DNA from: Schizochytrium sp. TIO01
Taxonomy: Eukaryota > Protista > Bigyra: Labyrinthulomycetes
Direction of reading: 5' to 3'
Assembly (NCBI GenBank): GCA_004764695.1
Contig: SMSO01000035.1
Coordinates: 1,116,001-1,180,000, forward strand
Length of the DNA stretch: 64,000 nt
Shown here: positions 3,793 through 41,677 of the stretch, piece by piece
Numbering within the stretch: the stretch's first letter is position 1
Layout: every line of letters starts with the position of its first letter
Program-made: the position numbers and the translations under genes
The notes under the pieces: model-generated
Database searches by the model: none
The model's input: the letters and a program-made list of their open reading frames with translations, nothing else
What the model was told of the DNA's origin: nothing

Positions 3793-6205
3793 CGCCCGAG
3801 CTGCAAAGAACAACGCAGAGTGAGTTGAAGCCTGCCTACCGAAGAGCTCAGATCAAACGTTAACGTGGACAAGGAACTTTAAGTCGCTCGAAGTCCTTCT
3901 GTGCTGCAGACCTTTCGCCTATTTGGGATTTGGTGAAGAAAAGAGCTCTTCTACAGAACTGGAAAAAAGAAAGAAAAAAGAAAGAGAGAAAGAGGGAGTA
4001 TCATGTGATTAGTCAGAGGATAGGTCACTCTGAGTAACTTTGGTAAATTGAAATTGAGTGAAGCGAGCACTATTTGAGCTTTGCTTAGACGAGGCGAAGC
4101 CTCGCTCTGGGATTTTGTTCATTATTTCAAGAAGGGCCGGGGCTCAAAGCCTCTGTAGCAAAATTTGAGTTAGCTATGAATCTAATGGGTCAGCATTGCA
4201 TTACAAAGAATTAGCGATAAGTGCACAGCACAATGGCTATTGTTTGTGGGTTTAACATTCACCTCAATTGACTTTGGGCCCAAGATAACAATCTTTGCTG
4301 GCATAATCAACCGTGCACTCCAAGGTTTATTTATTCTCAAGACTTGAATTTGGACCATGAAAATCGCAGTACCATTAACCACATGTATTCAACTTCAAAA
4401 CTAGCATGCGGAACTTTCATATTTAGTAGTGCAAATGCGAATGCCGCAGTTGAGTGATATATATGCAATTATTGAAAACAGGTATGTGCTTCATCTGTCA
4501 AAGAACAACGTGAATGTGCACAGATACTACATGAAAATCGTAAAATATGGAGGTGTCTAGGCGTCTCTTCGTTTTGCATCATACCCGAATCTAATTGCCA
4601 ACTTATGAGCAAGCCTTAATGCCCTAATCAACGAATGCTTGCTTGAAAATCAATGTTACGATATTGAGCCCTCTTCTACCGTGCGTCTGAGGGATTCACT
4701 CGACAAATTCGGGATATAATAAACAAAACAATGACGCTGTTGGGCACTCAGAATTCCAGTTGTTCATAACCGATAGGTCCTATCTCATGTCAGTTGTTTG
4801 CGTGGATTCCTCAGGTCCATCTACCGCGGGTGTCCTCGCTCGCTCAGAAGGTCTAGTTCACAGTGCCTACTTGGGCACCTTCTGCAGCATGATCCATGAT
4901 CGATTAAGTATGCACGTCGTCTCCACAAGTGTAAACAACAAAACAGGTAGATAAGAAAGATCAATCAATAGGTGAAGGAATCCCTTATAAAATACCTAGA
5001 TTGTAGGTATATAGTAAATGGCTGTGAGTCTCGAAAGGCCTATTGGGCTTAGGATGTTCTTACTAAAACTGGTCTTTGTACTACAAGTGGGAATCTAGAT
5101 TACCGTACGACAGCGAAGCTCCTGGTACAGCTGAGGGGACTGCCCTCAAGGCATGGATATGAGCATCGGATGTCTGGCATGATTCGAAGCGAAGCACATT
5201 CTTTCTCAGATGTCGTCGACCTGTGTGTGCGATGTCTTTCTAGCTAGTAGAGTTCATCTCGATCTGGGATATGGTAGGTAGGTACACAATTTCCACCTTT
5301 CTTACTAATTTACTCCTGAGTGGCTATTTATTTAAGTAAGCCTATTAGGTCTAGGCTACGAGTTATTCTCTTTTCTTTTATAATTGATTATAATTAATTA
5401 TAATTAATTATAAAAGAAAAGAAAAAAAAAAGTGTTTGTAAAAGCTGAGTTTGACGTAGGGCTCGTGCAGAATGAAAGGTATTTTGAAAGCATGCAAATC
5501 GCCATTTGGAGCGGCTAGCCCCTCGACTCCGGCGCCCAGAGCTCGGGCCGTCTTTCCTGGTACCCGAGCACGGCCCTACTGCCAGAGCCTGCACCCTCTT
5601 CCTTCGCATAAAGACCCTTGAAACAGGCTGCAAGGTGTCTCAGAGGCGCTCACGATCGAGGGCAAAGTCCTCCAATCGGCACGCGCGTCTTCGTTTGAAG
5701 TTCTTTGTTTTTCAATTTCTTTCTTTGTTTCTCTTCTCTCTCCTTTCTTTTCTTTTTCTTTTTTCTTCTTTCTCTCTACGTACGTGCGATTTGGTTTTTT
5801 ATACATTGCTATTCTTTGACCACGCACCCTCGCGCGTTCACTCTTTCACCCACCCGAAGAAGCAAGCGGGCATCTCGCGAGCTCAGACGCAATCACAGCT
5901 CCTGCCTTTGGGCGATACCAACAGGCTGGCGATCTGCTTTGGTGGTCGAGTCGCTGTATAGTGAACCCGTCTCGCTGCATCGCACCGTCCGTCGCACTGC
6001 TTAAGTTGAGGTCATCTCAGATCACACCACATCATTGGGGTTCATTGCCGCTTGACAAAGGATTCGGAGGCACCAGCAGAGCTACACAAGGTCTTTGAGA
6101 TCTTCGGGTACTAGACCACTCCTTCGTGAATTCGTCAAGACCTCCAAATTACTTGACGTGGCAGTTGTAACACATAGTTGGGACGGTCTTTTTAGAAGAG
6201 GCGCC

Positions 6206-8023
6206 ATGAGCCGTAAGAGGCCTGCACTGCAATGGGATCAGCTCATCGAGGCTGATGACACTGTGTCACTCTCGACAGCGCTTCAGACAAATGCAACTGG
6301 AATCCACACGCGAGTTGGCGCCGGGCACGAGACACTCTTAATGGTTGCTGTCCGTAGAAACCGCCGCGGGGCCTTTGACGTCCTCGTCAATGCTGGAGCT
6401 GAGTTGAACGCTGTGGACGCCGAAGGCAACTCGGCGTTGACTTTGGCATGTCAAGGCCGCAACCCTGAACTCGCAAAAGCTCTTATAGATCTTGGTGCCG
6501 ACGTAAATATTCAAGGTAAATTTAACATGTCGGCACTTATGCTGGCGTGTCGAGAGGGGCTTGTGGACACCGCTCTGCAGCTTCTGAATAAGGGCGCTAA
6601 CATGGACCTGCAGAATCAATTTGGATGGTCTGCAAGCATGTTTGCAGCAAGGTACCACAATTCTGATGAGGTTCTCAGGGAGATGGTCGAGCTTGGAGCG
6701 GATCTCGGGCTCAAGAACGGTGACCAGTGGAATTTGCTCATGTTCTGTTTGAGACATGGGCATCATCATATCGTGGCGATGCTAATTGACAGGGACGTGG
6801 ATCTCCAAGGCCTAAACCAAGATCAATGGAACCCGTTGCACTTAGCGCTAAGATACGCGACGGAGGGCGTGGCCTTGAGCATCTTAGAGGCATTAGTACA
6901 ACGTGGCGTGACAGACTTTGACCAAAAGAACTGTGACCAGTGGACAGCGCTCTCGTTCGCAATTCGATATGGACACACGGAGGTCGCCTCAAGACTCATT
7001 GAACTTGGGTGTAACCTTGAGGCAGAAAACGTTGACCAGTGGCGCCCAATTCACTTCTCCACTCGCTACCACCAGGAGAAGGTGACACTTCTGCTGCTTG
7101 AGCACGGCGTGGACATGAATAGTAAGAACCAGGACGGCTGGACACCCCTCATCATCGCCTGCCGGAATGAGCAACCCAATGCGGCCATGCGCATGGTCGA
7201 AAATGGGGCCAATGTGAATGTTCAAAATAACAATGGCTGGACTGCTCTGATGATGGCTAGCAGAAATAATCAGTTTAATGTTGCTAGCCTCATAGCGGAA
7301 CAGAGAAATGCAAATCTCAATCTCCAGGAAGAGGACGGCTGGGCTGCGCTCCACTTCGCATGTGCTTATGCCCAGGCGGATCTCACAAACGCTCTGCTCG
7401 ATAAGGGCGCCAATGTTCACATCTCTACTAACGACGGCTGGACGCCTTTGATGTTGGCCTGTCAAGGCCCAATCGAGGCTGGAAATAGTGAAGAGGGGCT
7501 CCGCGAGTGTATATTTGCCTGCTATGAGCATGGGGCTAACCTTTATCACAAAAGTTCTGGTTCCCCAAAGTACACTGCTCTGGATCTCTGTGTTAAGTAC
7601 AACCAGGATGAGTCGAAACTTTTCATTGAATTTGTGCTGGATGGTCCGGTAAAGCGCGCCGTTATTGATGAACTCAACCTTCCACGATCGGTCATGGTTA
7701 ACCTCTTCACACGAGGCATGACGAGTGTCATCAAGTGTAACGATCTTAGCGAGGCAGACCTTATTGAACTTGGAGTACCCGAGAACGCTGCTGCGAGCCT
7801 CCAAATGATCTTTTCTGAAGCCAGCTACACACGAGAAACCAACCAAGAATCGGGCTCCAATGCGCTTGCGGCAGCAGCGAAGCGCCTCAGCCACCGTCTA
7901 AGCAGCCGCCTTAGCCACCGGCGAAGTAACGAAGATCGCCAAAGTCTTAGTAACCGCCTTAGCAGCCGTTTGAGCCGGACGATGAGCAGACGTGAGAGCC
8001 ATCAGGCAACCGACGAGGAGTGA
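6206..8023 (+). CDS. Ankyrin-repeat protein (~12-13 repeats) with C-terminal SAM-like domain
   Basis: Repeated GWTPL/ALxxA...GAxVN ankyrin motifs. C-terminal LSEADLIELGV resembles the SAM helix motif. First ATG is 6206 (the track ORF starts at TTG 6095). Confidence 0.88.
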   Translation: MSRKRPALQWDQLIEADDTVSLSTALQTNATGIHTRVGAGHETLLMVAVRRNRRGAFDVLVNAGAELNAVDAEGNSALTLACQGRNPELAKALIDLGADVNIQGKFNMSALMLACREGLVDTALQLLNKGANMDLQNQFGWSASMFAARYHNSDEVLREMVELGADLGLKNGDQWNLLMFCLRHGHHHIVAMLIDRDVDLQGLNQDQWNPLHLALRYATEGVALSILEALVQRGVTDFDQKNCDQWTALSFAIRYGHTEVASRLIELGCNLEAENVDQWRPIHFSTRYHQEKVTLLLLEHGVDMNSKNQDGWTPLIIACRNEQPNAAMRMVENGANVNVQNNNGWTALMMASRNNQFNVASLIAEQRNANLNLQEEDGWAALHFACAYAQADLTNALLDKGANVHISTNDGWTPLMLACQGPIEAGNSEEGLRECIFACYEHGANLYHKSSGSPKYTALDLCVKYNQDESKLFIEFVLDGPVKRAVIDELNLPRSVMVNLFTRGMTSVIKCNDLSEADLIELGVPENAAASLQMIFSEASYTRETNQESGSNALAAAAKRLSHRLSSRLSHRRSNEDRQSLSNRLSSRLSRTMSRRESHQATDEE

Positions 8024-9372
8024 GTGAAAGTAGTCTATCCCATTATTTGCTGTGTCGAAGAAGAGAGTAGTATCTGTGAGATAAGATCTCCTTATGATCT
8101 CATTACTGCCTCCTCAAGGCACTCTCAATCATCTTGTTTCCCCCCTATTGTTGTATTGTCATTTTCGTTATAGGCAAATTGTGCCTGCCACTCCCTTCTC
8201 AAAACCTAAATTTTGACTAATGTTGTGTTCAACCTTTACAATTTCAACTTTTCTTCGTTCTTGGTAAACCTTTAGTTGATTTATCTGATGTTCATTTGGC
8301 AAACTATTATTTTCCTCTATATTTGTCCAGCTAGAGTTTACATGGACCTCATCGAAATGTGTATAATTTGTTTCGTTCAACAACTTTTGTCAGGAATTTA
8401 ACATCTAACCTTTGTCAATGTTGTTATCGAGATTCGAAAGTACTTGCTGATGAAATGCTAGGTAGCTCAGCTCTTTGTCTATGTGGACAAGGAAGGTCAT
8501 CTACCGCTTCCGCTATCCGCTAATAAAACTCGCAGCAACAAACTTTGTATAAAGAGCTTCAAGTACATCTGGGTATCAATCAATTGTGCATGCCTTTTGT
8601 TTAGTGGAGATGCTCTCTATCAATCATATACTAGGCTTGTTTATAGGTAGCTATTTATTGGCAACTCGCAGTACTTGATTAATGCAGATCACATTGTGTA
8701 TGGTTGTTTCTCCATTTTCATTGGCAGTACGAAATATGCCAACCAAACTCAGATGAAGTCCTTTCAATTAGTTCTCCATAGAATGTTATAAACTTTACAT
8801 TTACAAGATAACTTTGCTGTTTACCTAGCTAGGTAGAAGGTTTATGTCCCTGTAATGCATACCTTGACGCATATTATCCGCATGAAGCTCGCTGTTACTA
8901 AAGAGACTATACTATATCTGTCATTCATCAAGTCTTAGTCTAAGAAGACTTAGAACAAGCCGGGGACTCTCTTTTCCCTTTCTTTTTTCCCAAACAAAGG
9001 TCAGCATAGAATTTTTTTTTTGTATATAAATAATAGATCCGTTCGCTGGATTTGCGTTCCGCACGTAACATTAAAAGTTAAAGATTTATTCTGCACATGA
9101 ACTATTATTGAATAGCAGCAAGAGAATAAACATGTATTTTTCGTAGCGAAGGGGAGTTTCTTTGACACATCGTCTGGTCATCCTTAATGCACTCCGGTGC
9201 GTATGCACACTGAGATACCTACGTTGTGGACAGAAGTTGAGTGACGATCTGTCGTGTTTACGTGAAGTGTCCTCTTTTGCAGAGAAGTAGACTGGTGCGC
9301 ACGTGCATAACTTCTTCTCAAACGTAATATTGGTCGAGAGCGGAAGCGTGAAGGCCAAACTTTCGTTTGACG

Positions 9373-12300
9373 ATGACAAATTACCCATGTCATTGTGGAG
9401 AACACGAAGCGAGTTGCTCGTGCATCCCTGGTCGAACAGTAGCAAGTGCACAGATTAAAAATGACTTGCGCGGATCCACAGGAGACTTAAGAGTTGATGG
9501 TCAGCATCTCAAGCACAAGCCTGCTTCTCCAGTTTCCCCTCGCAAGCTGTTGATAGGCAAAGGTAAGAAGTCAGACTTTCTCTTCAAAGACCGATTACGA
9601 ATTGCTGCTGAATACTGGCATAAAAGAGAAAATTTTCAAACACATTGGGCAGGTCAATGGGATACAGATCGTGTCGCACAATTTCTGCATTATATCACAG
9701 GTGTATACCCAGAATCCTTGCAGATAAATGGCAAGCAGCTTCTGCGCGTTTCAATCTACACCCATCTGCAAATTGTTAACCACGATCATGAAGCTGCAGC
9801 TGAGGAGTTTCTCACGGTGGTGCCATCTGCTATTCATCGGAAAAAAGTTATCCGCTTGCTCATGCAGACCAAAGCTCCCATACTTATTAAAGATTCTAGT
9901 AAGCAGTCACTTGGGTATGTTCCAAGCCAGGAAAGCATCACAACTGTAGCACCGACTCAGTCTTCAACAGTTCTATCGAATATCATGGATGAGGATCAGC
10001 GAATTGCAATTCTTAAAGCACAGACAAACCGCCCCATTGTTCATGTTTCCTGTTTGAAACATGTATCGTCGAATCAACCTCAGCACCTTGATATCAAAAT
10101 TGCAACCGCGTCCTTCGCCCTGGAGAATTCCTTTGCCCATGAACAAGAGTTAAATGTAGCAACATCTTCAAAAACGCAGAATAACGTCAATTGCCGACAA
10201 CCCCAAGTTCTTACAGGCAAAAAGGATACAGCATTGCTACCAGGAGTAGAACTCACCATTGTTCCTCGCTTCCAGCATGCTGGAATCCAGTTCAATCCTG
10301 CGAAACAGACAATTAAGTGGTTACGTGAGCAACACGAAATTGCATTTGAGGTTGAGTGGAGGGGCGGCCGAGAGAGAATTTTGTATGGCCACGTTGAAGT
10401 CTGGGCAGGGCCAGTTATTATTGCAAGAGGACCGATTCAGCTTGAAAATGGTGATGCATTTCGGGCCGACAATACACCAACAAAGGAGGCAGATCCATCC
10501 CGTCTCCTCTCAATTGACTTTACCTTCTTCCAGCGAGTCAACCTAGTTTACTTAGCCTCGGATCAATACCTAAACAGCGCGCTAAGTCGTGTCGAGGTTA
10601 ACTTGAGGCGCTTCATTACTTTAAACCATGTTCTTAAAGAGGAAGGAAATATTCGAAGCGCCTGGGGAAGTTCAAAGGAGCGTGGAGTTCAACTGATACA
10701 AATATTCCTCTCGCATGAAGCCCAATCTTCCAAACCGTTTATAAAAACCGTAGAAACTATTACGCAGCTGATTGAGAACGCAAAACAGCTATGTGAGGCC
10801 CGACCAGAGGTAATTGTGCACTCATGGTCGCATCCTCGTCCAGACCGTGATTTAGGTCCAGCGCTAGCCCAGCTTCAATCTCTGATTGGTTCAAAAACAT
10901 TCGTTTTTCATGGTTTTGCTATGAACCAATCTTCTGATGCTACACCTTATTTCACGCCAAGTCGACCAGGTAAGCTTTTCAATTTAGCGCCAGGAACACC
11001 TATCAAATATGAAAGTTCAGGGGAGTGGTTACGAGGTCATATTATCTTAACTTCAGAAAAGAGTGGAACATTTACAATTGCACCTTCTGATGGAGGAAAA
11101 CCTATCCATGGGATACCAGAACATAGTATTCGAGTTTTGGGACCCGAATCTCGTTTTGGAGATCAACAAACCTCACAAGACACCCAACATGGAAACTATC
11201 GCATCTCTAATTCTAAATCCAGCGGTACGAAACGCTCAAGACGGCGACGAGATATTTTTGCAAGCTTAGAGGTTGGTGAAAATGTATTTGCACGTATTTT
11301 CCCAAGCAAAGAATACCTCGCTGGCGTTGTTGTGGCCCTTCACTCAGCGTCACTTACAGTAGATGTTGCGTTTAACAATGGACGTGCCGCATCTCAACTT
11401 GATGTGCGATATGTGCGCCAGCGCCCACAGCGAGTACAGGCTCAAATGCAATTTCATGGAGGTAGCAAACATGGGAACAATATTGACGGTGCGGGGCATA
11501 TTGACCTTCAAAACAGAGAGCGTACAGGAGGTTTAGCGTACGGCACTCTTGTACAAGTTCTCCAAACTGCAAGCGCTCCAGGCGTGTGTGTCACCGGTCG
11601 AATAAAGCAATCTCGGGAATATGGTCTCAAGTACGATGTGATGCTGAGCAATGGAGAGCTTGTTGAGAATATCCCAGTAAGGCTTTTGCAAGTACTTGAT
11701 GATTCTTTTCATGACGTGGCATCTCCTTCAAACAACGCTTCAAAGCACCAGCAGCAAGGTGAATCCTCAGGTTCTCACAATAGCCCCGAACATACATATG
11801 TAGATGCAATGTGTGACAGATTTCGTCAGGTGATTCGAGACGCTGCACAAGCCCGCTCAGATGGACGAGAACTGCGCGTACAGTTCAATCGCCTAGACAC
11901 CAATGGCAATGGTCAGCTAGAAGCAGCAGATTTCTTGTCTTCCTTACACGATCTCGGCTTTAGACCTACTGAAAGTGAAATTCTCGAGTTTGTTGATCGC
12001 ATGAGTTCACATAAAGATGGTTTTGTTTCATATGTTGACTTTGTCAGATTTGCCTTACCTGATGGCATTAGCCAAGGCGAGCGCCAACTGAAACGCTCGA
12101 TGGCATATTACCAAGCGTCTCTTGAAGCAAATGGTGTTTTAGCCGAACTTGAACGAGCCTTAAAATCTCGTATCGGAGAATTATGGGAGCATCTTGTTGA
12201 ATCAGACGTAACTGCATTGGGTATACTCAAGGAGGATACTTTTACCCGCTGTTTGCAGCGTTTACAAATTCAACTGACTTCAGATCAGCGTGTTGCGCTT

Positions 12301-15300
12301 GTTCGGGCATTTACAGAAGCAGAAGATCAAATTGATTATCGCGAATTTGCTATCGTGGTCGAGCTTTTGCTTACAGAAAAATTTGTCAATACATCGGTAC
12401 AAATTGTCTCCAGAACACAGAAGGGTCGACGTGCAGGAGAGTTAGATGAAAAATTAGACGCAGATGGTCAACCATTTTCTCTTAAGGAGCAAAGGCTTCG
12501 GAAGGAAATAAATTCAATAACACGAATCCAGGCCCTTGCCCGGCGTCGCATGGCCCAACGCTCTGTAGCAATTCTTAAACGTCAAATAGTAAGAGACTCT
12601 CGAACTATTGAGATATGGACTGGTACAAGTGCTCTTAGTACGTCTACAAAGGTGGACCCAAAATCATCAAACTTAGGAGCAAACGCACAACAAGTAATCG
12701 ATGAGTGGCGGAAGCTTTTGCATTTAAATACCCGGCATGGTGGTGAGGTTGTATCAGTTTTCCGAGCAATGGATACAAATTGTGATGGCGTACTGACACT
12801 TGAAGAGCTCTCAAACGCACTGCGACGCTACTCTGTTGATACTCGCCGCACCAACATGATCTTCCGTGAAATGGACCTAGACAATGATGGAGCTATCGAT
12901 CTTACAGATTTTAAAATGTTCCTTCAAGGGTCAAGAAGGAAAATATCTGGTGAGAGCGAGGAGAATCCTGCTGATGCACATTCTGTTATGCATAACATGA
13001 TTGAAGAGCTTGGTATCGATCTTTGTGCAAAAGTGAGGCGCTACTATTCGGTCTTAAAGCGCTGTGGTACCGACCTCCTTGAGCTACTACTATACCGCCC
13101 TCGAGGGGTAACCATGTCTTCTGTGCTACGTAAACAGGGCTTTGTCCTTGACACTGCAGAGTGGAAACGTCTTGAGGTTCACTTTGCAGGTATGGCAGAT
13201 CGGCGAGGGGATCGTTTGGTGTGCGAGACCTTTGTGAAAATGATGTCTCTCACGCAGGATGAGTTTGATGAACAACAATTTAACAAGCACGAATACCACT
13301 TACGAGACTATCTGCAAAAATCCAAAATTGACAGTGATGGTATCACTGGCCTTGGTAGATTGTGCCATAGAGTTATTGCAGGCATTAAAGAATTATGTAA
13401 AGACCCCAAAAGGAGCAAGTTCAAGCATGAGATACTGTGGTGGTTACTTGCAATCCATGAACCTGAAATCTCTTTAGAGATGGATCGTTTAGATTTAGAG
13501 CAATTTCTACGTACTATCAAGCTTCGGCCAACATCTTATGAGCTTGATCAAATTTTCCAAGCCCTCGATGAATCAGAGTCGGAAACTGTGTCATGCCGTG
13601 AACTTGCGCGACTTTTTGGCATTAGTCGTCGCATCAATGAGTATCTAGAAACTGACTATCTATACTCGAGGTTCTGTAGATCGTACGTAATGACACACCG
13701 TCTTCGCCTTGGCTTTCAAAGTTTTGAGGTCTCGCGAGCTGCTAGACGTGGGGGCTCAGCTTCTGCTGTTCATTGGCTTCGAGATACCATCGGGGTAGGA
13801 GCATACCGCAAACTCCGAGCAATGCTCGTTGCATCTGTTGCACGTGGTCTTCGGTTTATTAGTGGCACATGGCTCAGTGAGCGTATGCGTGCGAAGCTAG
13901 GATTTTGCAGCAGTGCGCACTTTGAGCGAGCTTTGCTTGAGCTTGGCCTTGGTCTATCACAAGACGAAATGCATAACTTGTGCAAAGCTCTGTGCAGTTC
14001 AAAAGGAGAACTTGATGTTTTCGAGTTTGCTGACCTTTGTGAAGTGGTCTTCACAACCCCGTCTGCTTCATCAGGTTCAACTGCTGGAGATGGTCTTAGT
14101 GAAGATATAGAGGCAGAAAAAGCACGCACAGAAACTGAAAGATACCTTCGAGAGATTTTGCAAGAGTATATTCGAACTCCAACTGGCCATCGAAATATCC
14201 TTCAGGTGTTTGAATCTTTTGATACACAAAAGAATGGTACCCTTGACCAATCTGAGCTTGAAGCGGTATTTCAAAATCTTGGTGTAGATTTATCCAAGGT
14301 TGATATTGGCGCCTTGCTCCGGCATTACGATGTTAATGGAGATGCACAACTCAGCTACATGGAGTTCTTAGAGGCTATTGATATCCGGGTTCATGCTGTT
14401 ATAGAGCAGGACGCAGCAAGCAGTCTCGAGAGCAAGCTTCCCAAAGTCAAAGTCGATATTGATCTTTCTCTTGTACAAGACAAGCTGTCTGGCTACGCGT
14501 TGCGCACAAAGCTTTGCCGTGAAGACGTTGATGATGCATGCGGAAGGATTCGGGCAATAGGTTTGCTAAGCAGACGCGATGTTGTGGATATCCTTGCTGC
14601 GCTCGGCCTTGCTCAATGCTTAAGCGATTCCGAGCTTTACATATTCTCACGCTACACTAAAAGACGTTTTAAGGCTTTCCTCATGAATGTTATTAAAGCC
14701 AGGGCCTTGCGTCAGCCTCGAAATGCAGTGAAGGGAGGTAGAGGTGGAGTAGCTTCAAATGCTATGCGTTTTGCTGGAGCAGCAAGAGGACAATTTGGTG
14801 ACAAAGGCGGTGCTTTGGCTCCAGATACTGCGGTGATTTTCAAAAATGCAACTAGTACAACAAGTGACGGAATTGTTGTCGGGCCCGGTCGAAACAAAGA
14901 TACGTTTGACGTGCGTTTACAAAATGGCAAGCTGGTGGAGAATGTAAAGCGCAGCCAGTTTGTTGTGTCAGGTGGCCGACCTGCTATATGTGAAAATGCC
15001 ATGGTTGTAGATAAGGCTAGTGGTAAAAAAGGTATTGTCGTACGCTTCACACCTGCGGACCCATCGCACGTGGATGTTCGGATCAAAAATAAGATTTATA
15101 AGAACGTCCCAATTTCGTCACTCGAGGTTCTCCCCTCAGATGAGACTGTTGCAAGCCTCAAACAAGGAATCCGAGTTTATGCATACTCTCGGGTTGACAA
15201 GTTATATTACGCAGGAACTATCCTGCGCACCGATTCTCGTGATGGTGTTGTAGATGTAGAGTTCGACCATGGGGAACTTGAGCTAACTCTTTTGCCAAAA

Positions 15301-15342
15301 GATGTTCGATCTATTCGCAAAACTGCAAATAACAATAAATGA
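9373..15342 (+). CDS. Giant multidomain Ca2+-binding protein: SAM-like, TIR-like, Tudor/SH3-like barrels, many EF-hands, IQ motif
   Basis: Uninterrupted ~1990-aa ORF. EF-hand loops DTNGNGQLEAAD, DTNCDGVLTLEE, DLDNDGAIDLTD, DTQKNGTLDQSE and DVNGDAQLSYME. IQ motif IQALARRRMAQR. Tudor-like YYAGTI...VDVEFDHGE. Confidence 0.85.
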   Translation: MTNYPCHCGEHEASCSCIPGRTVASAQIKNDLRGSTGDLRVDGQHLKHKPASPVSPRKLLIGKGKKSDFLFKDRLRIAAEYWHKRENFQTHWAGQWDTDRVAQFLHYITGVYPESLQINGKQLLRVSIYTHLQIVNHDHEAAAEEFLTVVPSAIHRKKVIRLLMQTKAPILIKDSSKQSLGYVPSQESITTVAPTQSSTVLSNIMDEDQRIAILKAQTNRPIVHVSCLKHVSSNQPQHLDIKIATASFALENSFAHEQELNVATSSKTQNNVNCRQPQVLTGKKDTALLPGVELTIVPRFQHAGIQFNPAKQTIKWLREQHEIAFEVEWRGGRERILYGHVEVWAGPVIIARGPIQLENGDAFRADNTPTKEADPSRLLSIDFTFFQRVNLVYLASDQYLNSALSRVEVNLRRFITLNHVLKEEGNIRSAWGSSKERGVQLIQIFLSHEAQSSKPFIKTVETITQLIENAKQLCEARPEVIVHSWSHPRPDRDLGPALAQLQSLIGSKTFVFHGFAMNQSSDATPYFTPSRPGKLFNLAPGTPIKYESSGEWLRGHIILTSEKSGTFTIAPSDGGKPIHGIPEHSIRVLGPESRFGDQQTSQDTQHGNYRISNSKSSGTKRSRRRRDIFASLEVGENVFARIFPSKEYLAGVVVALHSASLTVDVAFNNGRAASQLDVRYVRQRPQRVQAQMQFHGGSKHGNNIDGAGHIDLQNRERTGGLAYGTLVQVLQTASAPGVCVTGRIKQSREYGLKYDVMLSNGELVENIPVRLLQVLDDSFHDVASPSNNASKHQQQGESSGSHNSPEHTYVDAMCDRFRQVIRDAAQARSDGRELRVQFNRLDTNGNGQLEAADFLSSLHDLGFRPTESEILEFVDRMSSHKDGFVSYVDFVRFALPDGISQGERQLKRSMAYYQASLEANGVLAELERALKSRIGELWEHLVESDVTALGILKEDTFTRCLQRLQIQLTSDQRVALVRAFTEAEDQIDYREFAIVVELLLTEKFVNTSVQIVSRTQKGRRAGELDEKLDADGQPFSLKEQRLRKEINSITRIQALARRRMAQRSVAILKRQIVRDSRTIEIWTGTSALSTSTKVDPKSSNLGANAQQVIDEWRKLLHLNTRHGGEVVSVFRAMDTNCDGVLTLEELSNALRRYSVDTRRTNMIFREMDLDNDGAIDLTDFKMFLQGSRRKISGESEENPADAHSVMHNMIEELGIDLCAKVRRYYSVLKRCGTDLLELLLYRPRGVTMSSVLRKQGFVLDTAEWKRLEVHFAGMADRRGDRLVCETFVKMMSLTQDEFDEQQFNKHEYHLRDYLQKSKIDSDGITGLGRLCHRVIAGIKELCKDPKRSKFKHEILWWLLAIHEPEISLEMDRLDLEQFLRTIKLRPTSYELDQIFQALDESESETVSCRELARLFGISRRINEYLETDYLYSRFCRSYVMTHRLRLGFQSFEVSRAARRGGSASAVHWLRDTIGVGAYRKLRAMLVASVARGLRFISGTWLSERMRAKLGFCSSAHFERALLELGLGLSQDEMHNLCKALCSSKGELDVFEFADLCEVVFTTPSASSGSTAGDGLSEDIEAEKARTETERYLREILQEYIRTPTGHRNILQVFESFDTQKNGTLDQSELEAVFQNLGVDLSKVDIGALLRHYDVNGDAQLSYMEFLEAIDIRVHAVIEQDAASSLESKLPKVKVDIDLSLVQDKLSGYALRTKLCREDVDDACGRIRAIGLLSRRDVVDILAALGLAQCLSDSELYIFSRYTKRRFKAFLMNVIKARALRQPRNAVKGGRGGVASNAMRFAGAARGQFGDKGGALAPDTAVIFKNATSTTSDGIVVGPGRNKDTFDVRLQNGKLVENVKRSQFVVSGGRPAICENAMVVDKASGKKGIVVRFTPADPSHVDVRIKNKIYKNVPISSLEVLPSDETVASLKQGIRVYAYSRVDKLYYAGTILRTDSRDGVVDVEFDHGELELTLLPKDVRSIRKTANNNK

Positions 15343-15531: not shown

Positions 15532-16845
15532 CTAGTCCAGGAGATCAGAAAGGGAAGGCGAGGAGATGGGGGAGCAATCGTCCTCACCAAGGGTAAGATC
15601 ATCTTTATCCTCTTCTAGAATTTTTCCTTTTCCCAGAGGCTTGGGTTGAGAAAAAGGAGTCAGCATAACTAAAGGTGGCGGCGGCGTATCACCTTCCTCA
15701 TATTCTTCTTCATTCAAATTTTTAGACACCTTGGTAGATTCTTCACCAGGGATCTGAAGGGGCGGAAGCATGACTTTATTGGAGCGAAAACTACTCTCAC
15801 TTGACGGAGTAAAAGATGCTTGACTCAGCAAATCTTCATCGATGTCCTCTCCTAGATCAAACTCCCCACTTAGCAACAGCTCCCCGTCATCAAGTTGAGT
15901 ATCTTCATCTGAGCATTTTCTAAAATTTGTCACAGTATCAATGTCTTCCTTTGTCTCCTTTTCTGAGTTAGACAATCTGGGTTTGCCATAATTACTAGTT
16001 TGAAAGCTACTTAGTGTGTTGTAGTCATGAGTATTTGGCTGGCCGTGACTGTTGGGATGATCTTTGTTCTTCTCAATTCCAGAAACATCAGCAGCAATGG
16101 AGTGGAGAGGTTCACCACAAGCTACAGCAGAAACGCGTCCGATAGTGTATCTCGTACGATCGATGTCGTCATCGTCATCGTCATCGTCGTCATCACTATC
16201 AGCATCATCATCATCGCCATCAGCATCATCGCCATCAGCATCATCGCCATCAGCATCATCGCCATCAGCATCATCGTCATTATCAAGATGGTTGTCGTTG
16301 GCGCTTCCAGCAACACTAACACCATCCTCGTTTCTAGACTCTAAAGATTTGTATGACTGAGCGTTAGCTTCAATCTCAATTCTCAAAGCGTTCCCTTTGC
16401 TGCCTGTGCTTGAAAGAGCGCGTAAACTATTTTCAACAGTTTTGTGGAGTTCGTGTGAGGTGCTGTTTATTTCTGTTGATGATAAGTTTATTTGCGTCTG
16501 AACAATAGGTTCAAGTTCATCAAGCTCCTTGTTCTCTATCTCAGTTTCTTCATGGGTGACTTTCGGATTACTACTTTGGTTTTCAGTATGATTCACGTCG
16601 TTTTCACTGTCCAAATCGTCGTCAGGGTTTTCAAAGGTCTCAAGAAAGCCCTGGAGTTTCTCCACTTCATCATGTTGCTTCGCTTTTAATGAATCAAAGT
16701 TTCTCACAATCCTCCACAAATCTTTGGCGGGGGCATTTAAAAACCACTCTTCATTTCTCCCAACCTCCAGAGCTTCCAGTCTACACAAACGCAGCTCTGC
16801 AAGCCTCTCCATGGCACCATCTTCAGACATGGCTGCCATATTCAT
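15532..16845 (-). CDS. Hypothetical acidic low-complexity protein
   Basis: 437-aa ATG-initiated ORF with a short helical N-terminus followed by an Asp/Glu/Ser-rich, probably disordered body. Confidence 0.7.
   Translation of the reverse strand: MNMAAMSEDGAMERLAELRLCRLEALEVGRNEEWFLNAPAKDLWRIVRNFDSLKAKQHDEVEKLQGFLETFENPDDDLDSENDVNHTENQSSNPKVTHEETEIENKELDELEPIVQTQINLSSTEINSTSHELHKTVENSLRALSSTGSKGNALRIEIEANAQSYKSLESRNEDGVSVAGSANDNHLDNDDDADGDDADGDDADGDDADGDDDDADSDDDDDDDDDDIDRTRYTIGRVSAVACGEPLHSIAADVSGIEKNKDHPNSHGQPNTHDYNTLSSFQTSNYGKPRLSNSEKETKEDIDTVTNFRKCSDEDTQLDDGELLLSGEFDLGEDIDEDLLSQASFTPSSESSFRSNKVMLPPLQIPGEESTKVSKNLNEEEYEEGDTPPPPLVMLTPFSQPKPLGKGKILEEDKDDLTLGEDDCSPISSPSLSDLLD
16164..16280 (-). 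repeat. Coding 15-bp tandem repeat (DADGD)x4 plus poly-Asp
   Basis: CATCAGCATCATCGC units on the + strand followed by TCA/TCG triplets. This repeat also produces the spurious overlapping ORFs in the track. Confidence 0.85.
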
Positions 16846-17819
16846 AGTAGTTGTCCCTCGTTATAAATCCGCTGTTTTTGACGATTCTCGTAAATCTTGA
16901 TACATCTACCAGCGTCTACAACTACGCCTCAAATTGCTTGAGCCCGTTTCTTTATTCCATCAAATGCATGTGCTATGGGCTACAGATTGTTTGAGACCAT
17001 GCATGCAATGTGTGCTTGTGCTTGAGCTTGCTTTGCAAAGACAGACATTCGTGCATTCCAGTTTTGCATCTTGCCGTTTCAATACGCGTTGTCCGGGTTG
17101 CGCAGTCCACACTGGGCCCATTTTAATACCTTAATGCACTTCTGGTACATTAAATAAAGGTTTTAAGGTGGTGTAAAAGCGTCTCTCTCACATCCATCTT
17201 TTCCAGTTTCCAATACCTCTAGCTGGCTTGAGGATCTGTCGCTTCGCGAGACGCTCGACGAGCGCGTAGCTGTTACTGGCGTCGAGCCAGGTTTGACAGC
17301 TTTCTCCTTGGTCTGCTCTGGCGTTGGCGACTTCTCATAAAACGAGGCGCTCGCTTCGAGTGGGCATCAGCCATCAATTGAATTGTAAGCACGTGTGCAC
17401 GTGCAGATACATAGGAAACCTAGAGAAGTACTTAGTTCTGCATTTTGCATTCGATTCTAGTTGGCTTCTTTCGCTTTTTTGCTTTCGCAAGAGCTGGGAG
17501 CGCTTTGAGATCAGCTTCAAGGTTAGGGGAGCAAGTAGCTAGTTGAGCCTTACTTTTACCGAATCATTTAGGAAGCAGGTTCTTTGCCGAGAGACAACGA
17601 AGTAGTTAAGCTTGCGCGCCGGTCCATTTAAAGAGATTTAGCCTCTAATTTTTCGTTGAGGGCCTTGTTGACAATAAAGCTCATCTGATACCTTCTCCGC
17701 TCTGCGTATTCTGGGTACATCAAGGCTGTCATCAAGGCTGTAGTTCATTTAAATACAATTTGGAACGTCTGAAAGGTCAATTGACGTCTTGCAACATCGG
17801 TACAACGAATTGAAGCAAG

Positions 17820-19076
17820 ATGGGCCTGTTCTCTCCCAAGAAAGAAAATGAGGTTTCTGCTGTAGTAACGACGGAAATCGACAGTAACGGGCGTACTAAA
17901 GATGGAGACCTCGATGAAAACGAGATGCTCGAGGTATACAACGAACAAAGCTCTGTGCTTAAGTTCACGCCGTCTGGTGGTTCTCAATGCCAGCAATCAT
18001 CTCGTTTCATTATGTGGATACTCTTCATTTGCACCTGTGCTGTAGTCGCTCTAGTTTCTCGTGGGTTTGCAAGACTCCGGGATGCCTTTGACACAGAGGT
18101 TACTGATACGGATGAGTTTTACACATGGCATTCCACTAGTCGCAATTCCAGTGCAGATTTGGCCTTGAATGCTTCCTACACAGCCAAAATCGCAGCTGGT
18201 GCAGATCCATTAGATCTTTGTGATGTTCCTTTTTTCATGGATGGCGACTCTAATGCTTTATTGATTGACACAATTGATCACATCGATTTCTTGGTCAACA
18301 TTTTCTTTGTCACTGGTGCCATTGCTGCAACAATTTACCTTCTGACTAAGTTCTGTGTAACATATGGTCTCTCGACAAAGGACACTCGCAACGAAGCAGC
18401 TCCGGGAGAACGCCCTGTTCTCGACGTTTACGTTGGAGGGCACCCTGAGACACGTGCTGAACGCCGAGTACGTATTTTCTTGCGCGGTGAGACCCTTGGC
18501 TACATGTTGGCACAAGGTTTGCAGGATGTACCCCTAATTACGTTTTCTATGGTCTACTTTGCGATGCGCGCTTCAGTTCGTGGTACAAAGTGTGCACAAT
18601 GTGTAGCCGCGGGTGAGCTTTGTGAACCTGATTACTTTTCGGACATTGATTTCAGTGTTAAGTTGGCAATTGGCGCCGTTTCTGTTTCTCTCCTATGGAA
18701 CGCAGGCCTACTTGCAGAGCGTTGGGTGGAATTTGCCAAGTACAAGAAGAAGAAGCGCCAGGAGCACTACAACCCGCGCAAGTACATCATTAATACCGTC
18801 ATTTTCTTCATCGTTTACATCATCACGATCGTATCGCCAATGGCCATGATTACTCACTACTACCTTGGTCCATTCCTGCCCATCTTGGACTCTACGCAGG
18901 GTGTGTATGTTGTGGGAGTTATCGGTCTTATCTTTTGGGCTATTGCCATTATCATTCTCAACCTCGTCGCTGGTATTGACCCTGGTGAGATTCTTTCGTG
19001 CCCTGTGCTTTGCTGTGAGATTGCAGAGGTTGCTTGCGAGCCATGTCTTCAGAGCTGTGTGTGCTGTTGTTGTTAA
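17820..19076 (+). CDS. Multi-pass membrane protein of unknown function with Cys-rich C-terminus
   Basis: 418-aa ORF with about 6 hydrophobic segments, N-glycosylation sequons (NSS, NAS) in the first loop, a QDVP motif and a tail CCEIAEVACEPCLQSCVCCCC. Confidence 0.8.
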   Translation: MGLFSPKKENEVSAVVTTEIDSNGRTKDGDLDENEMLEVYNEQSSVLKFTPSGGSQCQQSSRFIMWILFICTCAVVALVSRGFARLRDAFDTEVTDTDEFYTWHSTSRNSSADLALNASYTAKIAAGADPLDLCDVPFFMDGDSNALLIDTIDHIDFLVNIFFVTGAIAATIYLLTKFCVTYGLSTKDTRNEAAPGERPVLDVYVGGHPETRAERRVRIFLRGETLGYMLAQGLQDVPLITFSMVYFAMRASVRGTKCAQCVAAGELCEPDYFSDIDFSVKLAIGAVSVSLLWNAGLLAERWVEFAKYKKKKRQEHYNPRKYIINTVIFFIVYIITIVSPMAMITHYYLGPFLPILDSTQGVYVVGVIGLIFWAIAIIILNLVAGIDPGEILSCPVLCCEIAEVACEPCLQSCVCCCC

Positions 19077-19703: not shown

Positions 19704-21068
19704 TTACAAGAGCACCACTCCAATCTCCTCGGGCTTGATTTCCTGGCCGACAGCGTAGTTGTAAAGGTAGTAGTGGAGGTTTCCATCGCCAATACCAAAT
19801 AGGAGGTCCTTGAGAATGGTCTTGTTTTCCATGAGATCCAAAGCGTTAAATACGTCAAACTCGTTGGCGTTAGCGTGAATAAGTGCATCGCGCATGAGCT
19901 GCTTGAAAGACACCGTAGTAGCAACGTTGTAGAACGAGTATGCTGCTTTGAGGTGGTTGTACTCATCATGGCCCAGAATGCTGCTAGGGAGGTTGTAAAA
20001 GCTGCAGAAATCAGTAACGTTGCCGTCCTTGTCAGTGATGACATAGGAGTACACCACGTTGTCGCGCGGGAGTAGCCAATGAGCAACCTCATCCTCATCA
20101 AACTCAATCCAAATCTTGAACTGCTCCTGGTGCTTGCGGAGAAGCTTGGTGACTCCAGCCACATGCTTTGCCTCCATCTTAACAGTGCCAGACTGCGCCT
20201 CATCAGGCAACTTGTACAGCTTGATGGTGCGAGCCATCGTCATGCGATCTCCAAGTCGAGAGAATCCCACACCAATGAGCTTCTTTGGGTTGAGGGATCT
20301 GTGCCAGTACCGCGCGACTCCAATAGGTTCAGGAATGCGAACTCCAGCAGTGTAAACTGCCTGCCACTTGTCTTCCACATTCACTCGCCTTGTGACCTCC
20401 TTGATTAGCACCGGTGCCAATCTTTTGCTTCTGAGTTTCTTGTGTACACACAAGAAGTTAATCTCAGCCATATCAACGACCTTGTCGTGCACGTGCACCT
20501 TGGCAGGCACGCCTGTGATCATTGCAAGCAACTTCTTGTTGCTGGACTGCCGCACTCCAACGTGCCACTCGGGCGAGTAACCGGGCGGCTTGAGGGCCCA
20601 CTCGAGAAACTCCGGAGCATAGTCAAATCTAAACATGTTGTCATCATCCTCAACATAGTTCTCCGTCAGAAGCGTGTATGCCTCCTTCACTTGCTCCGGA
20701 TCTTCGACGTCGATCGTGCTCCACTCGAATCCCTTCGGCAGCGCATATGGTGTCTGGCGCACGTCCGAAACAGTCTTAGTTTCGAGAGGACCCACAGTGG
20801 GCACTGCAGCTTCGCTAGAATCAACCTCGGAGCTAGAGACAGCACCATTCTGAGGAACTGGCTGTGTGCTCCAGAATTTGTGCTGCTTCGCGTTGCCGCC
20901 AAAGAGCGTGCGGCGGAGCTCAATGAGTTGCTCGAGACGCTTACGCTCAGCAGCAATAGCGTCAGCATCAGGGGCGGGCGGTGCCTCAGAGCTCAGCTCA
21001 GTGGCCTCCAGCGTCTCCGTGACATCTTCCACAGAGGGCTTGGCGTTGCTGTCGGAGTCTCCGCTCAT
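19704..21068 (-). CDS. NMT: Glycylpeptide N-tetradecanoyltransferase (N-myristoyltransferase)
   Basis: HKFWSTQPV, NYVEDDDNMFRFDY, EINFLCVHKKLRSKRLAPVLIKEVTRRVN, FGIGDGNLHYYLYN and a C-terminal GVVLL. Confidence 0.97.
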   Translation of the reverse strand: MSGDSDSNAKPSVEDVTETLEATELSSEAPPAPDADAIAAERKRLEQLIELRRTLFGGNAKQHKFWSTQPVPQNGAVSSSEVDSSEAAVPTVGPLETKTVSDVRQTPYALPKGFEWSTIDVEDPEQVKEAYTLLTENYVEDDDNMFRFDYAPEFLEWALKPPGYSPEWHVGVRQSSNKKLLAMITGVPAKVHVHDKVVDMAEINFLCVHKKLRSKRLAPVLIKEVTRRVNVEDKWQAVYTAGVRIPEPIGVARYWHRSLNPKKLIGVGFSRLGDRMTMARTIKLYKLPDEAQSGTVKMEAKHVAGVTKLLRKHQEQFKIWIEFDEDEVAHWLLPRDNVVYSYVITDKDGNVTDFCSFYNLPSSILGHDEYNHLKAAYSFYNVATTVSFKQLMRDALIHANANEFDVFNALDLMENKTILKDLLFGIGDGNLHYYLYNYAVGQEIKPEEIGVVLL

Positions 21069-22452
21069 GCTTGCTTGTTTTAAGTTGCTAGATTATTCGA
21101 TGATCTCGAAACCCGGAACGAATGAGAAAATGATTGTCGAGAGGAGGCACTGCCTTCCTCGGGGAGCTTGAGTGAGGTTGCCGAAGGCTCGCGTCCGACG
21201 TATTGGCGACCGGGTTTAGCCAGATGGGATTCTGTTTCCTTGCTGAGACGTCTCAGTGATTGCGATTGAGCGTCTCGATGATCTGGAACGATGGCGTCTG
21301 TTCTTTTGACAGTCCTATTGTAAAAGCTATATAAGAGTTATGATAGAGAGAACGTATTTGTCTGTGAAATATTTAAGACAGATGTGCTGTGGAGTGGGCG
21401 GTTTTACATATAAATAAAATGAGGGAAGGACAGCCAGGGAATTACTTGTAGTAGTTGTATAATCTAATAGCGGTAAACAGAGAAGATGGCAGGAACGGTT
21501 AGATTGGTAGATTGGTTACATTAGGCCAAGTACATAAAGTACATCGAAATGGCAAAAATTTTACAGTGCCATGATCTAAATTCACGTTTCACAGAACAAG
21601 GTCTAAAATATCATCTGAGCGCAGACCCAAGGTCATTTCTCATGGCTTACAACAGGTGCAATCGCTAGTTGTTTAGTTATGGCCCAATGTACTGAGGGAC
21701 TGATTGGGAGCCGATTGATAACATATTTTATTCATCTGCAAACATTCTCGTTTCAGCGATTTTCCAACAAATGTTCTTGAAAGCACATCAGGCCATCTTT
21801 ATCTAAAGTCAGGGTGACACGAGTGTGACGGCGCTGATCTTTCATGCAGCAGAGTGTCGAGACGCTCGATTCTTAGTTCCCGCTGTTTGACAGCTTGTGC
21901 TCCACCGTAATAAGAGGCAGGTACAGAGCAAATTGTATCATCTGTGACATGACGACGATGAAAATGTAAGGTTCTGCTGATGTCTCCATGGCGAATCTCA
22001 TACGTGCTAAAAAGACGCCTACTCAATAGGCGGTGAGTAGCAATAAATGGCTCTTAAAGACCACGTGAAAGAGGAAAAGCAAACGAAATTACTAACTTGC
22101 AAGCTTATTCAATATCATTTCCCTTTTGGGGGGGGCATTCGTCCATTTCGCAATTGCAAATTTTAATGGTTCATGCTACAAATTCAAGCTAGGCTCTGGT
22201 GGATGCGATTCTCACCAAAGGATTTGTATTCCTACGGATGCTTCAATTGCTTCAAGGTCCATCATTATTGCTGTTGCTTCTTTTTGTTTTAATTTTAATT
22301 TTCAAAATTAGAAAGAATGTATCATTTAACATTCTTTTCATTGAATCACATTCACTCATTCTCGTTCATCGCTCATTGTCAAGCCCGATTTCTTCGGCAA
22401 AGCCACAATTGTCTAGAGCACTGGCACATATAGCCCTTCGCTGTTTCGCACA

Positions 22453-27850: not shown

Positions 27851-28505
27851 CAGTCTTGTTTGCAGCTCCTAGCGGCTACTTTTACCTTCGAGCCTTGACA
27901 AGCAAAGCCAAACTTAGTTTGCAATCAGATAAGCTCTACACCTCGGCTGTTGGTGGAGTCCTCGCAACACAGCAGCTCGTTGGTTAATCAAAGGCGTTCT
28001 CAAGGTCGGAGAATATTCAACTTTCTTGAACGTCACCACGGAAACTCTAAAAACAAGGAAGTATCAATCTTCAACAAATTCAATCACTGTACTCCACGCT
28101 CAAGGGAATAACCTGAGTCTGGCCTTTGAGCACGTAATGAGCCTGTAGACGTATGCTCGACAATGTAAGTGCAATTTGTGAATCGCTTAAGTCAAAGCTC
28201 AACTGCAAGCAAGCAGTCACAGTCAGTACGCAGACCAGAGTGTCAAGCCTAGTAGTAGAATTAACAGACAGTTCTACGTGAAGATGCTTTGCGTAGCTCC
28301 GATGCCACGCAGCTTCTCTTTCCTTCTTGATGAGCTTGAGGTCGGTCCTGTGGTTCTTATAAAGGTCACAATGGCGAGCAGGCCGGCAGATAGTTGCCCT
28401 CCTCGGGCCCGTTTGCAGCCGCTCAGGACCGCGAGTCGCGGTCGCGAACCCGATCAAATTATAAAGCACCTCCGGTCGCTGCGCAGAGCGGAGTGGAGCT
28501 GACCG

Positions 28506-41332: not shown

Positions 41333-41677
41333 TGACGACCCTCCACTTGCGTAGCTGCCACGGCTACTTTAAATCCCGAAGGTCTGGGCAAAATAGGGGG
41401 TCTACAGCGCACTCTTTCTTGACCACCACTAGCAGCAAGTCAACTCACGACGGAAAAGTAAGGGTACTCAGAGAGTCCTCGACCAAGCATTAAAGACTGC
41501 GCAACCCGCTTCAGTTGTTATTGGGAAGTAAAATAAATCATATGAAAACGAGAAAGCAACGTTGTACTAGTATTCTCCAAAAGAAAAAGCAAAACTGGAG
41601 CTTGCCAATAAAGTCTTGCCATCGTTGTTTGAGAACATTGCTCAAAGCCTGCACGACTTGAGTTCGTCGAGCGCATC

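What the first reader, a model, noticed from the sequence alone, without database searches (positions are those of the whole stretch)
9658..10920. SAM plus bacterial-style beta-sandwich/TIR module at the N-terminus of a giant EF-hand/Tudor protein
Seen: WDTDRVAQFL...INGKQLL...HRKKVIRLL (9658-9866) reads as a SAM domain. It is followed by ELTIVPRFQHAGIQFNPAKQTIKWLREQHEIAF...GHVEVWAGPVIIARGPI, then FQRVNLVYLASD...LIQIFLSHEAQSS..F...VIVHSWSHPRP. Recalled from memory, not searched: a group of bacterial TIR proteins has this same sequence of motifs (P...G..FNP....F.W....H...F, G...V..G...IA, then IF.SY...D, FQLFWS....S..V..EW, IRPVYW..P.P). Established: SAM and TIR occur together in SARM1, and many TIRs are NADases. 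Inference: this is a Ca2+/calmodulin-regulated TIR scaffold in a protist, built from a horizontally acquired bacterial module and possibly an immunity or cell-death signalling hub. I do not recognise this architecture from described proteins.
Basis: partly seen in the sequence, partly recalled or inferred. Interest (0 to 1): 0.8.

Follow-up and report, generated by a model that had tools for sequence, protein, structure and literature searches.

The report
Dead bacterial-type TIR in calcium scaffold
A very large calcium-binding-type protein of a marine protist carries a hidden module related to bacterial immune-type TIR enzymes, likely gained from bacteria long ago, which lacks the residue such enzymes need and so likely serves as a binding surface rather than as an enzyme.

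Summary
Window 9373-15342 (+) is one uninterrupted 1989-aa frame. It encodes a SAM-like domain, an Ig-like beta-sandwich, a TIR-like fold, Tudor-like repeats, EF-hands and an IQ motif. Pfam detects neither SAM nor TIR.

A model folded from eukaryotic rows only matches TIR domains best (Z 8.1-9.0). The N-domain matches SAM domains weakly but consistently (Z 4.3-4.8). Its beta part is clearly homologous (hhalign E 6e-11). Its TIR part is only faintly so (E 0.004; 0 of 150 shuffles as high).

The correction: the catalytic glutamate, present in 78 of 78 bacterial copies, is replaced in 4 of 4 eukaryotic copies (Thr466 here). This is a pseudo-TIR, not a SARM1-like NADase. It is among the least conserved domains of the protein, and the Hondaea gene model lacks it. 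Bacterial origin is likely, but the tree cannot show it. An immune or cell-death role is untested. My literature searches found no description of this architecture.

The parts
9373..15342 (+). Whole gene, 1989 aa, one uninterrupted frame
   Evidence: ORF; P0002. One contig of run X15 (guessed RNA) covers 9204-11959 with no joint. Of 31 coding differences between strains, 19 are synonymous.
9373..9423 (+). N-terminal cysteine-rich motif (YPCxC...CSC), role unknown
   Evidence: Shared with orthologue P0011; supports this ATG as the start.
9571..9879 (+). SAM-like helical domain (aa 97-176) with a conserved preceding helix (aa 74-90)
   Evidence: AF2 mean pLDDT 86.6. The top 9 VIA rows are SAM-bearing chains, Z 4.3-4.8, rmsd 2.7-4.5, 62-88 aligned; 31 of 50 rows name SAM, PNT or TEL. 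Foldseek gave nothing at E<=0.001. No Pfam hit.
10030..10452 (+). Ig-like beta-sandwich (aa 227-367, low-confidence insert aa 234-293), homologous to the domain in front of the TIR in the bacterial family
   Evidence: hhalign probability 97%, E 5.8e-11, 77 columns; 0 of 150 shuffles as high. VIA matches to Ig-like domains (HAP2 domain 3 Z 7.5, rmsd 2.9, 87 aligned; GH2; FixG). Pfam has no family for it, even in two bacterial copies.
10531..10923 (+). TIR-like fold (aa 394-524) without the catalytic glutamate; Thr466 at 10747-10749 stands in its place
   Evidence: Model from eukaryote-only rows. The top six VIA rows are TIR chains, Z 8.1-9.0, rmsd 3.1-4.1, 107-117 aligned. hhalign to the bacterial TIR half E 0.004 over 99 columns. 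T at the Glu column in 4 of 4 aligner modes.
10984..11700 (+). Three Tudor/SH3-like repeats (aa 545-600, 636-692, 728-783)
   Evidence: Weak Pfam here (DUF4537 E 0.008); Tudor_5 E 1e-5 in orthologue P0005; conserved in the alignment. Not folded.
11785..12400 (+). Two EF-hand pairs, mostly degenerate; one loop fits the calcium-binding pattern (aa 849-860)
   Evidence: identity to orthologues 37-68% over aa 812-910.
12526..12561 (+). IQ motif (aa 1059-1070)
   Evidence: Pattern present in 5 of 5 orthologue lineages; Pfam IQ E 0.03 in P0005.
12772..12909 (+). EF-hand pair with two canonical loops (aa 1141-1152, 1175-1186)
   Evidence: EF-hand_7 E 4e-34 for the whole protein; both loops fit the pattern in 5 of 5 lineages.
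14197..14364 (+). C-terminal EF-hand pair (aa 1616-1671)
14809..15321 (+). C-terminal Tudor/SH3-like repeats (aa 1820-1990)
   Evidence: BAHCC1-like Tudor E 0.0015 and Tudor_3 E 0.043, both under their cut-offs.

Best explanation
The gene encodes a 1989-aa EF-hand/IQ protein whose N-terminal part holds a predicted SAM-like domain and an Ig-like + TIR-like module homologous to a bacterial TIR family, likely gained from bacteria early in this protist lineage; the module lacks the catalytic glutamate, so it likely works as a non-enzymatic binding or assembly surface that calcium would switch through the EF-hands. Shown: one reading frame; homology of the Ig-like part; the same domain order as in bacteria; loss of the glutamate and most of the TIR pocket motifs; a conserved canonical EF pair next to an IQ motif. 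Predicted: the SAM, Ig and TIR folds. Inferred: Ca2+ binds the central EF pair, which engages the neighbouring IQ helix or lets calmodulin do so. That rearranges the scaffold and changes access to the SAM, Ig, pseudo-TIR and Tudor surfaces, which recruit partner proteins. The host is probably a thraustochytrid (closest named orthologue Hondaea fermentalgiana, 54%). The pathway served is not known, and immunity is only one option.
For: Fold from eukaryote-only rows, so not led by bacterial sequences: 10 of the top 13 VIA rows are TIR chains (Cat1 counted as a TIR from my own knowledge). The bacterial family is real and broad: 261 pattern matches, 194 confirmed, 80 kept; Pfam TIR_2 listed for 54 of 55 proteins scanned (55 of 78 intact ORFs). 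Glu in 78 of 78 bacterial rows against T, K, A and K/N in 4 of 4 eukaryotic rows. The glutamate is described as essential for NAD+ processing (10.64898/2026.04.20.719644, section 5 read). Inactive TIRs are proposed to act in multimer assembly (10.64898/2026.10.19.760177, passages). Orthology is backed by gene order: NMT and RhoGEF-PDZ genes follow in both the window and L081. The module is still under constraint: Ig core 33-40% identical across orthologues; 5 of 7 strain differences in the module are synonymous (few sites).
Against: The TIR half alone is a weak sequence match: hhalign probability 8.7%, and the bacterial TIR-half profile does not list the window protein. In a 52-window slide along the family alignment, the TIR windows scored 18.6-18.8, no higher than a short chance match at 19.2. 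The VIA Z gap to non-TIR flavodoxin-like folds is under 1 (Adc Z 8.1), and Foldseek gave no E<=0.001. Model mean pLDDT is 55.5, about 60-70 over the TIR. SAM Z-scores are below 5. The TIR is among the least conserved domains (16-26% identity). The Hondaea model lacks Ig-TIR and P0007 lacks SAM. The tree does not place the eukaryotes inside bacteria. No partner is identified.
Confidence: 0.55

Rival explanations
1. The protein is a structural or motility scaffold of the EF-hand/IQ/Tudor type, for example in the zoospore flagellum or cytoskeleton. The Ig-pseudo-TIR module is an old passenger kept as a spacer or minor contact, with no TIR-type signalling role.
For: EF-hand and IQ regions are much better conserved than the TIR. 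Weak hits to EF-hand_11, EFCAB10 and DUF5580, whose ciliary links I recall and did not test. The module is missing from the Hondaea model and the SAM from P0007. Eukaryote branches are 4-9 changes per column against a median of 0.5.
Against: The module is kept in frame, in the same order, in 4 of 5 lineages that are only 25-34% identical overall. The W-x-HP-x-P motif and the Ig core persist. The Hondaea model is unreliable: it joins the upstream ankyrin gene to this one, whereas here the two are separate frames and, in one run, separate contigs.
Confidence: 0.3
2. It is an active, SARM1-like NADase switched on by calcium: SAM clusters the TIRs, and a displaced acidic residue (Glu468) or a partner supplies catalysis.
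For: SAM-like and TIR-like folds in one chain. A Glu lies two residues after the catalytic column in the window protein and in P0005. The bacterial relatives all keep the Glu.
Against: No Glu at the catalytic column in 4 of 4 eukaryotic rows under 4 aligner modes. The nearby Glu is at +2 in two rows, +3 in P0003 and absent in P0007. The bacterial F.SYS and LR.GE.W motifs are largely lost.
Confidence: 0.07
3. The module did not come from bacteria by transfer. Either it is an old shared domain pair lost in most eukaryotes, or only the Ig-like part is homologous and the following alpha/beta domain is another flavodoxin-like fold.
For: The tree is unrooted, with eukaryotes as one long-branched side. 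Sequence signal for the TIR half is weak. My eukaryote sampling was shallow: the word-based search missed three known orthologues.
Against: The alpha/beta domain follows the Ig domain at the same spacing and aligns end to end with the bacterial TIR (99 columns; 0 of 150 shuffles as high). The module occurs in nine bacterial phyla and an archaeon with many different partners, but in only one eukaryotic orthologue family among the hits.
Confidence: 0.08

Closest known systems
Bacterial Ig-like + TIR_2 (PF13676) multidomain proteins (P0008-P0010, L001-L080); no name found for the family
   Same: Homologous beta-sandwich directly followed by a TIR, same motif order.
   Different: Bacterial copies keep the catalytic Glu (78 of 78). 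They are fused to kinases (13 of 55 scanned), Hsp70 (6), TPR, STAND, CHAT, FHA or T6SS parts; no SAM or EF-hand family is among the Pfam rows shown. The eukaryotic copy has lost the Glu and carries an insert in the Ig domain.
SARM1 / TIR-1 (ARM-SAM-SAM-TIR NADase)
   Same: SAM-like and TIR-like folds in one chain; SARM1 and TIR-1 chains are among the top SAM matches (Z 4.6 and 4.4).
   Different: One SAM, no ARM repeats found, an Ig-like domain between SAM and TIR, no catalytic Glu, and about 1450 further residues of Tudor-like, EF-hand and IQ. No sequence link to SARM1 was found.
Non-enzymatic TIR adaptors (TRIF, TIRAP, TRAM, MyD88) and inactive bacterial TIRs (TIR-FT, FxsC-C; 10.64898/2026.10.19.760177, passages)
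   Same: TIR fold without the NAD+-cleaving site, a plausible assembly surface.
   Different: Descends from another TIR lineage (the Ig-linked bacterial one), sits in a calcium-type scaffold of a protist, and has no known receptor or partner.
Hondaea fermentalgiana GBG24927.1 (source name 'Ankyrin repeat domain-containing protein 50')
   Same: Orthologue, 54% identical, with SAM, Tudor-like, EF-hand and IQ parts.
   Different: The public model joins the upstream ankyrin gene and lacks the whole Ig-TIR module; real loss and mis-predicted intron could not be told apart.

Membership tests
TIR domain superfamily | Flavodoxin-like beta/alpha fold with TIRs as nearest structures | tested here: met
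   top six rows TIR, Z 8.1-9.0; the gap to non-TIR folds is under 1, model confidence moderate.
TIR domain superfamily | Match to a Pfam TIR profile | tested here: not met
   No hit at E<=10 or in the whole protein; none at E<=0.1 in four orthologues.
TIR domain superfamily | Homology to a protein family whose members score as TIR_2 | tested here: met
   strong for the adjoining Ig part, weak but collinear for the TIR part.
Enzymatic TIR NADases | Catalytic glutamate on helix alpha-C | tested here: not met
   T466 here; K, A and K/N in three orthologues; E in 78 of 78 bacterial rows. Register from sequence alignment, not from model coordinates.
Enzymatic TIR NADases | NAD+ cleavage | not testable with these tools
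   Needs an assay.
SAM domain | Helical SAM/PNT fold | tested here: met
   confident model, top 9 rows SAM-bearing, 31 of 50 rows name SAM/PNT/TEL; Z only 4.3-4.8, so weak.
SAM domain | Match to a Pfam SAM profile | tested here: not met
SAM domain | Self-association or SAM-SAM pairing | not testable with these tools
   Needs a binding experiment.
SARM1 family | ARM repeats, tandem SAMs directly before an active TIR | tested here: not met
   No ARM family in Pfam; one SAM; Ig-like domain between; no Glu.
EF-hand calcium-binding proteins | Paired helix-loop-helix motifs with canonical 12-residue loops | tested here: met
   Pfam above cut-off; 4 loops fit the pattern, 2 of them in 5 of 5 lineages. 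Ca2+ binding itself is untested.
Horizontally acquired bacterial gene | Eukaryotic clade nested within bacterial homologues in a rooted tree | tested here: inconclusive
   quick tree only, long branches, no outgroup.

The most novel reading that the evidence does not exclude
A bacterial Ig-TIR enzyme module was captured by an early labyrinthulomycete, lost its catalysis, and became a calcium-gated decoy or nucleator. On a Ca2+ rise its SAM and pseudo-TIR would seed or cap the filaments of the cell's active TIR NADases, linking calcium directly to TIR death or defence signalling in a protist. It would also mean that TIR surveys built on database annotation miss a layer of cryptic, Pfam-invisible TIRs.
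Probability: 0.12. Interest if true: 0.8.

Novelty: new variant of a known kind. Interest (0 to 1): 0.5.

Why it matters
It is a TIR-like domain that no profile library used here detects, so annotation-based surveys, such as the 71,000 UniProt-annotated eukaryotic TIR proteins in 10.64898/2026.04.20.719644 (section 5), would likely miss it. It looks like a case of a bacterial signalling enzyme domesticated into a dead interaction module, and it joins TIR, SAM and calcium-sensing parts in a way my searches did not find in print. It also exposes a wide bacterial family (unnamed Ig-like domain plus intact TIR, fused to kinases, Hsp70, STAND and T6SS parts) that can be assayed directly. The loss of the catalytic residue, the tiny known eukaryotic family and the lack of any functional link keep the score moderate.

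Tried and rejected
No genome is held for this window, so paralogues and possible active TIR partners could not be sought.

Word-based protein searches found only the protein itself or itself plus Hondaea. One search missed three known orthologues, so these blanks say little.

Other searches that found nothing useful: ESM Atlas gave only unnamed hits at 0.83-0.84 and nothing for P0007. PDB sequence searches gave chance hits (PadR E 0.02, cyclodipeptide synthase E 0.14). Viral contigs gave 0 confirmed of 5, plasmids no match, and the viral fold library nothing meaningful. Foldseek on PDB gave no E<=0.001 for either model. PADLOC and NCBIfam gave no SAM or TIR family; the XopAW hit is just EF-hands and is under its cut-off.

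The complex job on two copies of the SAM domain gave no answer (score 0.01, mark 0.32). It is no evidence either way.

The careful tree did not finish, and the quick tree cannot name a donor. Neighbour clustering in the 80 bacterial loci showed no operon shared beyond close relatives; the largest clusters are overlapping-frame shadows of the gene itself. No holder run is on record as RNA. Run X18 has no cover over the ankyrin gene, so the two-transcript reading rests on one run.

Rows dropped: P0006 (repeat artefact), L072 and L077 (internal stops), P0011-P0013 (same 90% cluster as P0005), and 3 of 34 strain differences outside the coding part.

Literature searches without a description of this protein or architecture: (open-access library only). 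PMC7159879 and PMC8195603 were read as passages only, and those passages do not describe the Ig-TIR module. I did not read the supplements of any paper; those of the two preprints are closed and may list thraustochytrid TIRs or this bacterial family.

Full report
The gene. The finding lies in an ORF at 9352-15342 on the + strand, with an ATG at 9373 giving 1989 residues; residue numbers here count from 9352. Pfam finds EF-hands far above cut-off and only traces of Tudor-like families. Twenty public runs hold the stretch or part of it. In run X15, guessed to be RNA, one contig covers 9204-11959, through SAM, module and Tudor repeats, without a joint. The same run has no cover from 8239 to 9203, where two DNA runs go on, a one-study hint that the upstream ankyrin gene is a separate transcript. 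Of 31 coding differences between strains, 19 are synonymous, and 5 of 7 within the module. The gene is real and under constraint.

Relatives. phmmer over 1.84 billion representatives with aa 88-533 gave 9 hits. Four are full-length orthologues, 25-54% identical. The only named one is from Hondaea fermentalgiana, so the host is probably a thraustochytrid (inference). Gene order supports orthology. The ankyrin gene upstream matches the front of the Hondaea model at 55%. NMT (56%) and RhoGEF-PDZ genes lie downstream both here and in metagenome locus L081. Three hits are bacterial-type proteins with Pfam TIR_2, matched on the beta part. One hit (P0006) is a repeat artefact.

The bacterial family. 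A scan of 185,579 prokaryote genomes with those proteins gave 261 pattern matches, 194 confirmed, and 80 loci kept. The loci come from nine bacterial phyla, mostly Acidobacteriota, Planctomycetota and Actinomycetota, and one methanogen. The shared unit is about 280 residues: a beta domain for which Pfam has no family (2 of 2 copies tested) and a TIR. TIR_2 is listed for 54 of 55 proteins scanned, and partners include kinases (13), Hsp70 (6), TPR, STAND, CHAT, FHA and T6SS parts. The catalytic Glu is present in 78 of 78 intact copies.

Homology, half by half. The bacterial beta-half profile hits the window protein at E 2e-12, P0005 at 4e-13 and P0007 at 6e-8, but not P0003 or P0004. Profile against profile gives probability 97%, E 5.8e-11. 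The TIR half is much weaker: probability 8.7%, E 0.004. It does align over 99 columns from the first strand to the W..P.P motif, and none of 150 column shuffles scored as high. Against this, sliding windows of the family alignment scored the TIR region no higher than a short chance match. The case for the TIR therefore rests on position, collinearity and fold together.

Folds. I folded aa 73-533 with eukaryotic rows only, to avoid steering the model (mean pLDDT 55.5). The full structural search matched aa 394-524 to TIR domains in the top six rows (Z 8.1-9.0) and in 10 of the top 13, with a non-TIR flavodoxin-like chain tied at 8.1. It matched aa 225-367 to Ig-like sandwiches (Z up to 7.5). 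Foldseek listed two plant TIRs at probability 0.97-0.98 but E 0.02. The N-domain alone folded confidently (pLDDT 86.6). Its top nine matches are SAM-bearing chains, at Z 4.3-4.8 only (two of the nine, TIR-1 and liprin, I count as SAM from my own knowledge).

The correction. In four aligner modes the column of the bacterial Glu holds Thr466 here, Lys in P0003, Ala in P0005, and Lys or Asn in P0007. The register from the preceding strand has no gaps in three of the four. The other pocket motifs are largely lost. A 2026 preprint calls this glutamate a defining, essential feature of catalytic TIRs (10.64898/2026.04.20.719644; section 5 and passages read). The domain is therefore best read as a pseudo-TIR. 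It is among the least conserved domains (16-26% identity, against 37-68% for the first EF region). P0007 has no SAM and the Hondaea model has no Ig-TIR, though that model also fuses two neighbouring genes and may be wrong.

Mechanism. Two canonical EF loops and an IQ motif about 70 residues before them are kept in 5 of 5 lineages. I infer a calcium switch in the middle of a long scaffold whose ends carry interaction modules: SAM, Ig-like, pseudo-TIR and Tudor-like. Inactive TIRs have been proposed to take part in multimer assembly in bacterial systems (10.64898/2026.10.19.760177, passages). I put this reading at 0.55, a structural scaffold with a passenger module at 0.3, an active NADase at 0.07, and no transfer or no true TIR at 0.08. 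Origin from bacteria is the simplest reading of the distribution, but the quick tree has eukaryote branches of 4-9 changes per column and no outgroup, so it names no donor and no direction.

Novelty. Nine literature searches found no description of this architecture or of the bacterial Ig-TIR unit; the library is open-access only and supplements were not read. Earlier notes of this scan hold nothing on this sequence. They do report other TIR and SAM proteins in marine protists, which I did not test. Interest 0.5.

Noticed in passing
L001-L080 (match region of each locus), P0008-P0010: A wide bacterial family: an Ig-like domain with no Pfam family plus a TIR with an intact Glu (78 of 78), fused to kinases, Hsp70, STAND, TPR, CHAT, FHA, WD40 or T6SS parts, with no shared operon. 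It may be an undescribed signalling or defence module worth its own study.
   Followed up: partly
window 6056-8023 +: Ankyrin-repeat gene, 55% identical to the first 590 residues of Hondaea GBG24927.1. The public model likely fuses two genes and skips the Ig-TIR module. Its C-terminal end looks SAM-like by eye, but Pfam gives no hit.
   Followed up: partly
window 9373-9423 +: Cysteine-rich N-terminal motif shared with P0011; could bind zinc or carry lipid.
   Followed up: no
window 19704-21092 - and 23480-27868 -; L081 8242-9564 - and 10104-13544 +: NMT and RhoGEF-PDZ genes follow this gene in both loci although the protein itself is only 32% identical: conserved local gene order.
   Followed up: yes
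window 57163-61632 -: A 1489-aa frame with Ion_trans (E 6e-4) and adenylate/guanylate cyclase (E 8e-7) hits: a channel-cyclase fusion.
   Followed up: no
L039 6001-10662 +, L062 4678-8517 +, P0010: The Ig-TIR unit is fused to type VI secretion parts (VipA/VipB sheath domains; ImpA_N).
   Followed up: no
window 15532-16860 -, 17814-19076 +, 40352-41368 -, 44664-45728 +: Long frames with no significant Pfam family.
   Followed up: no
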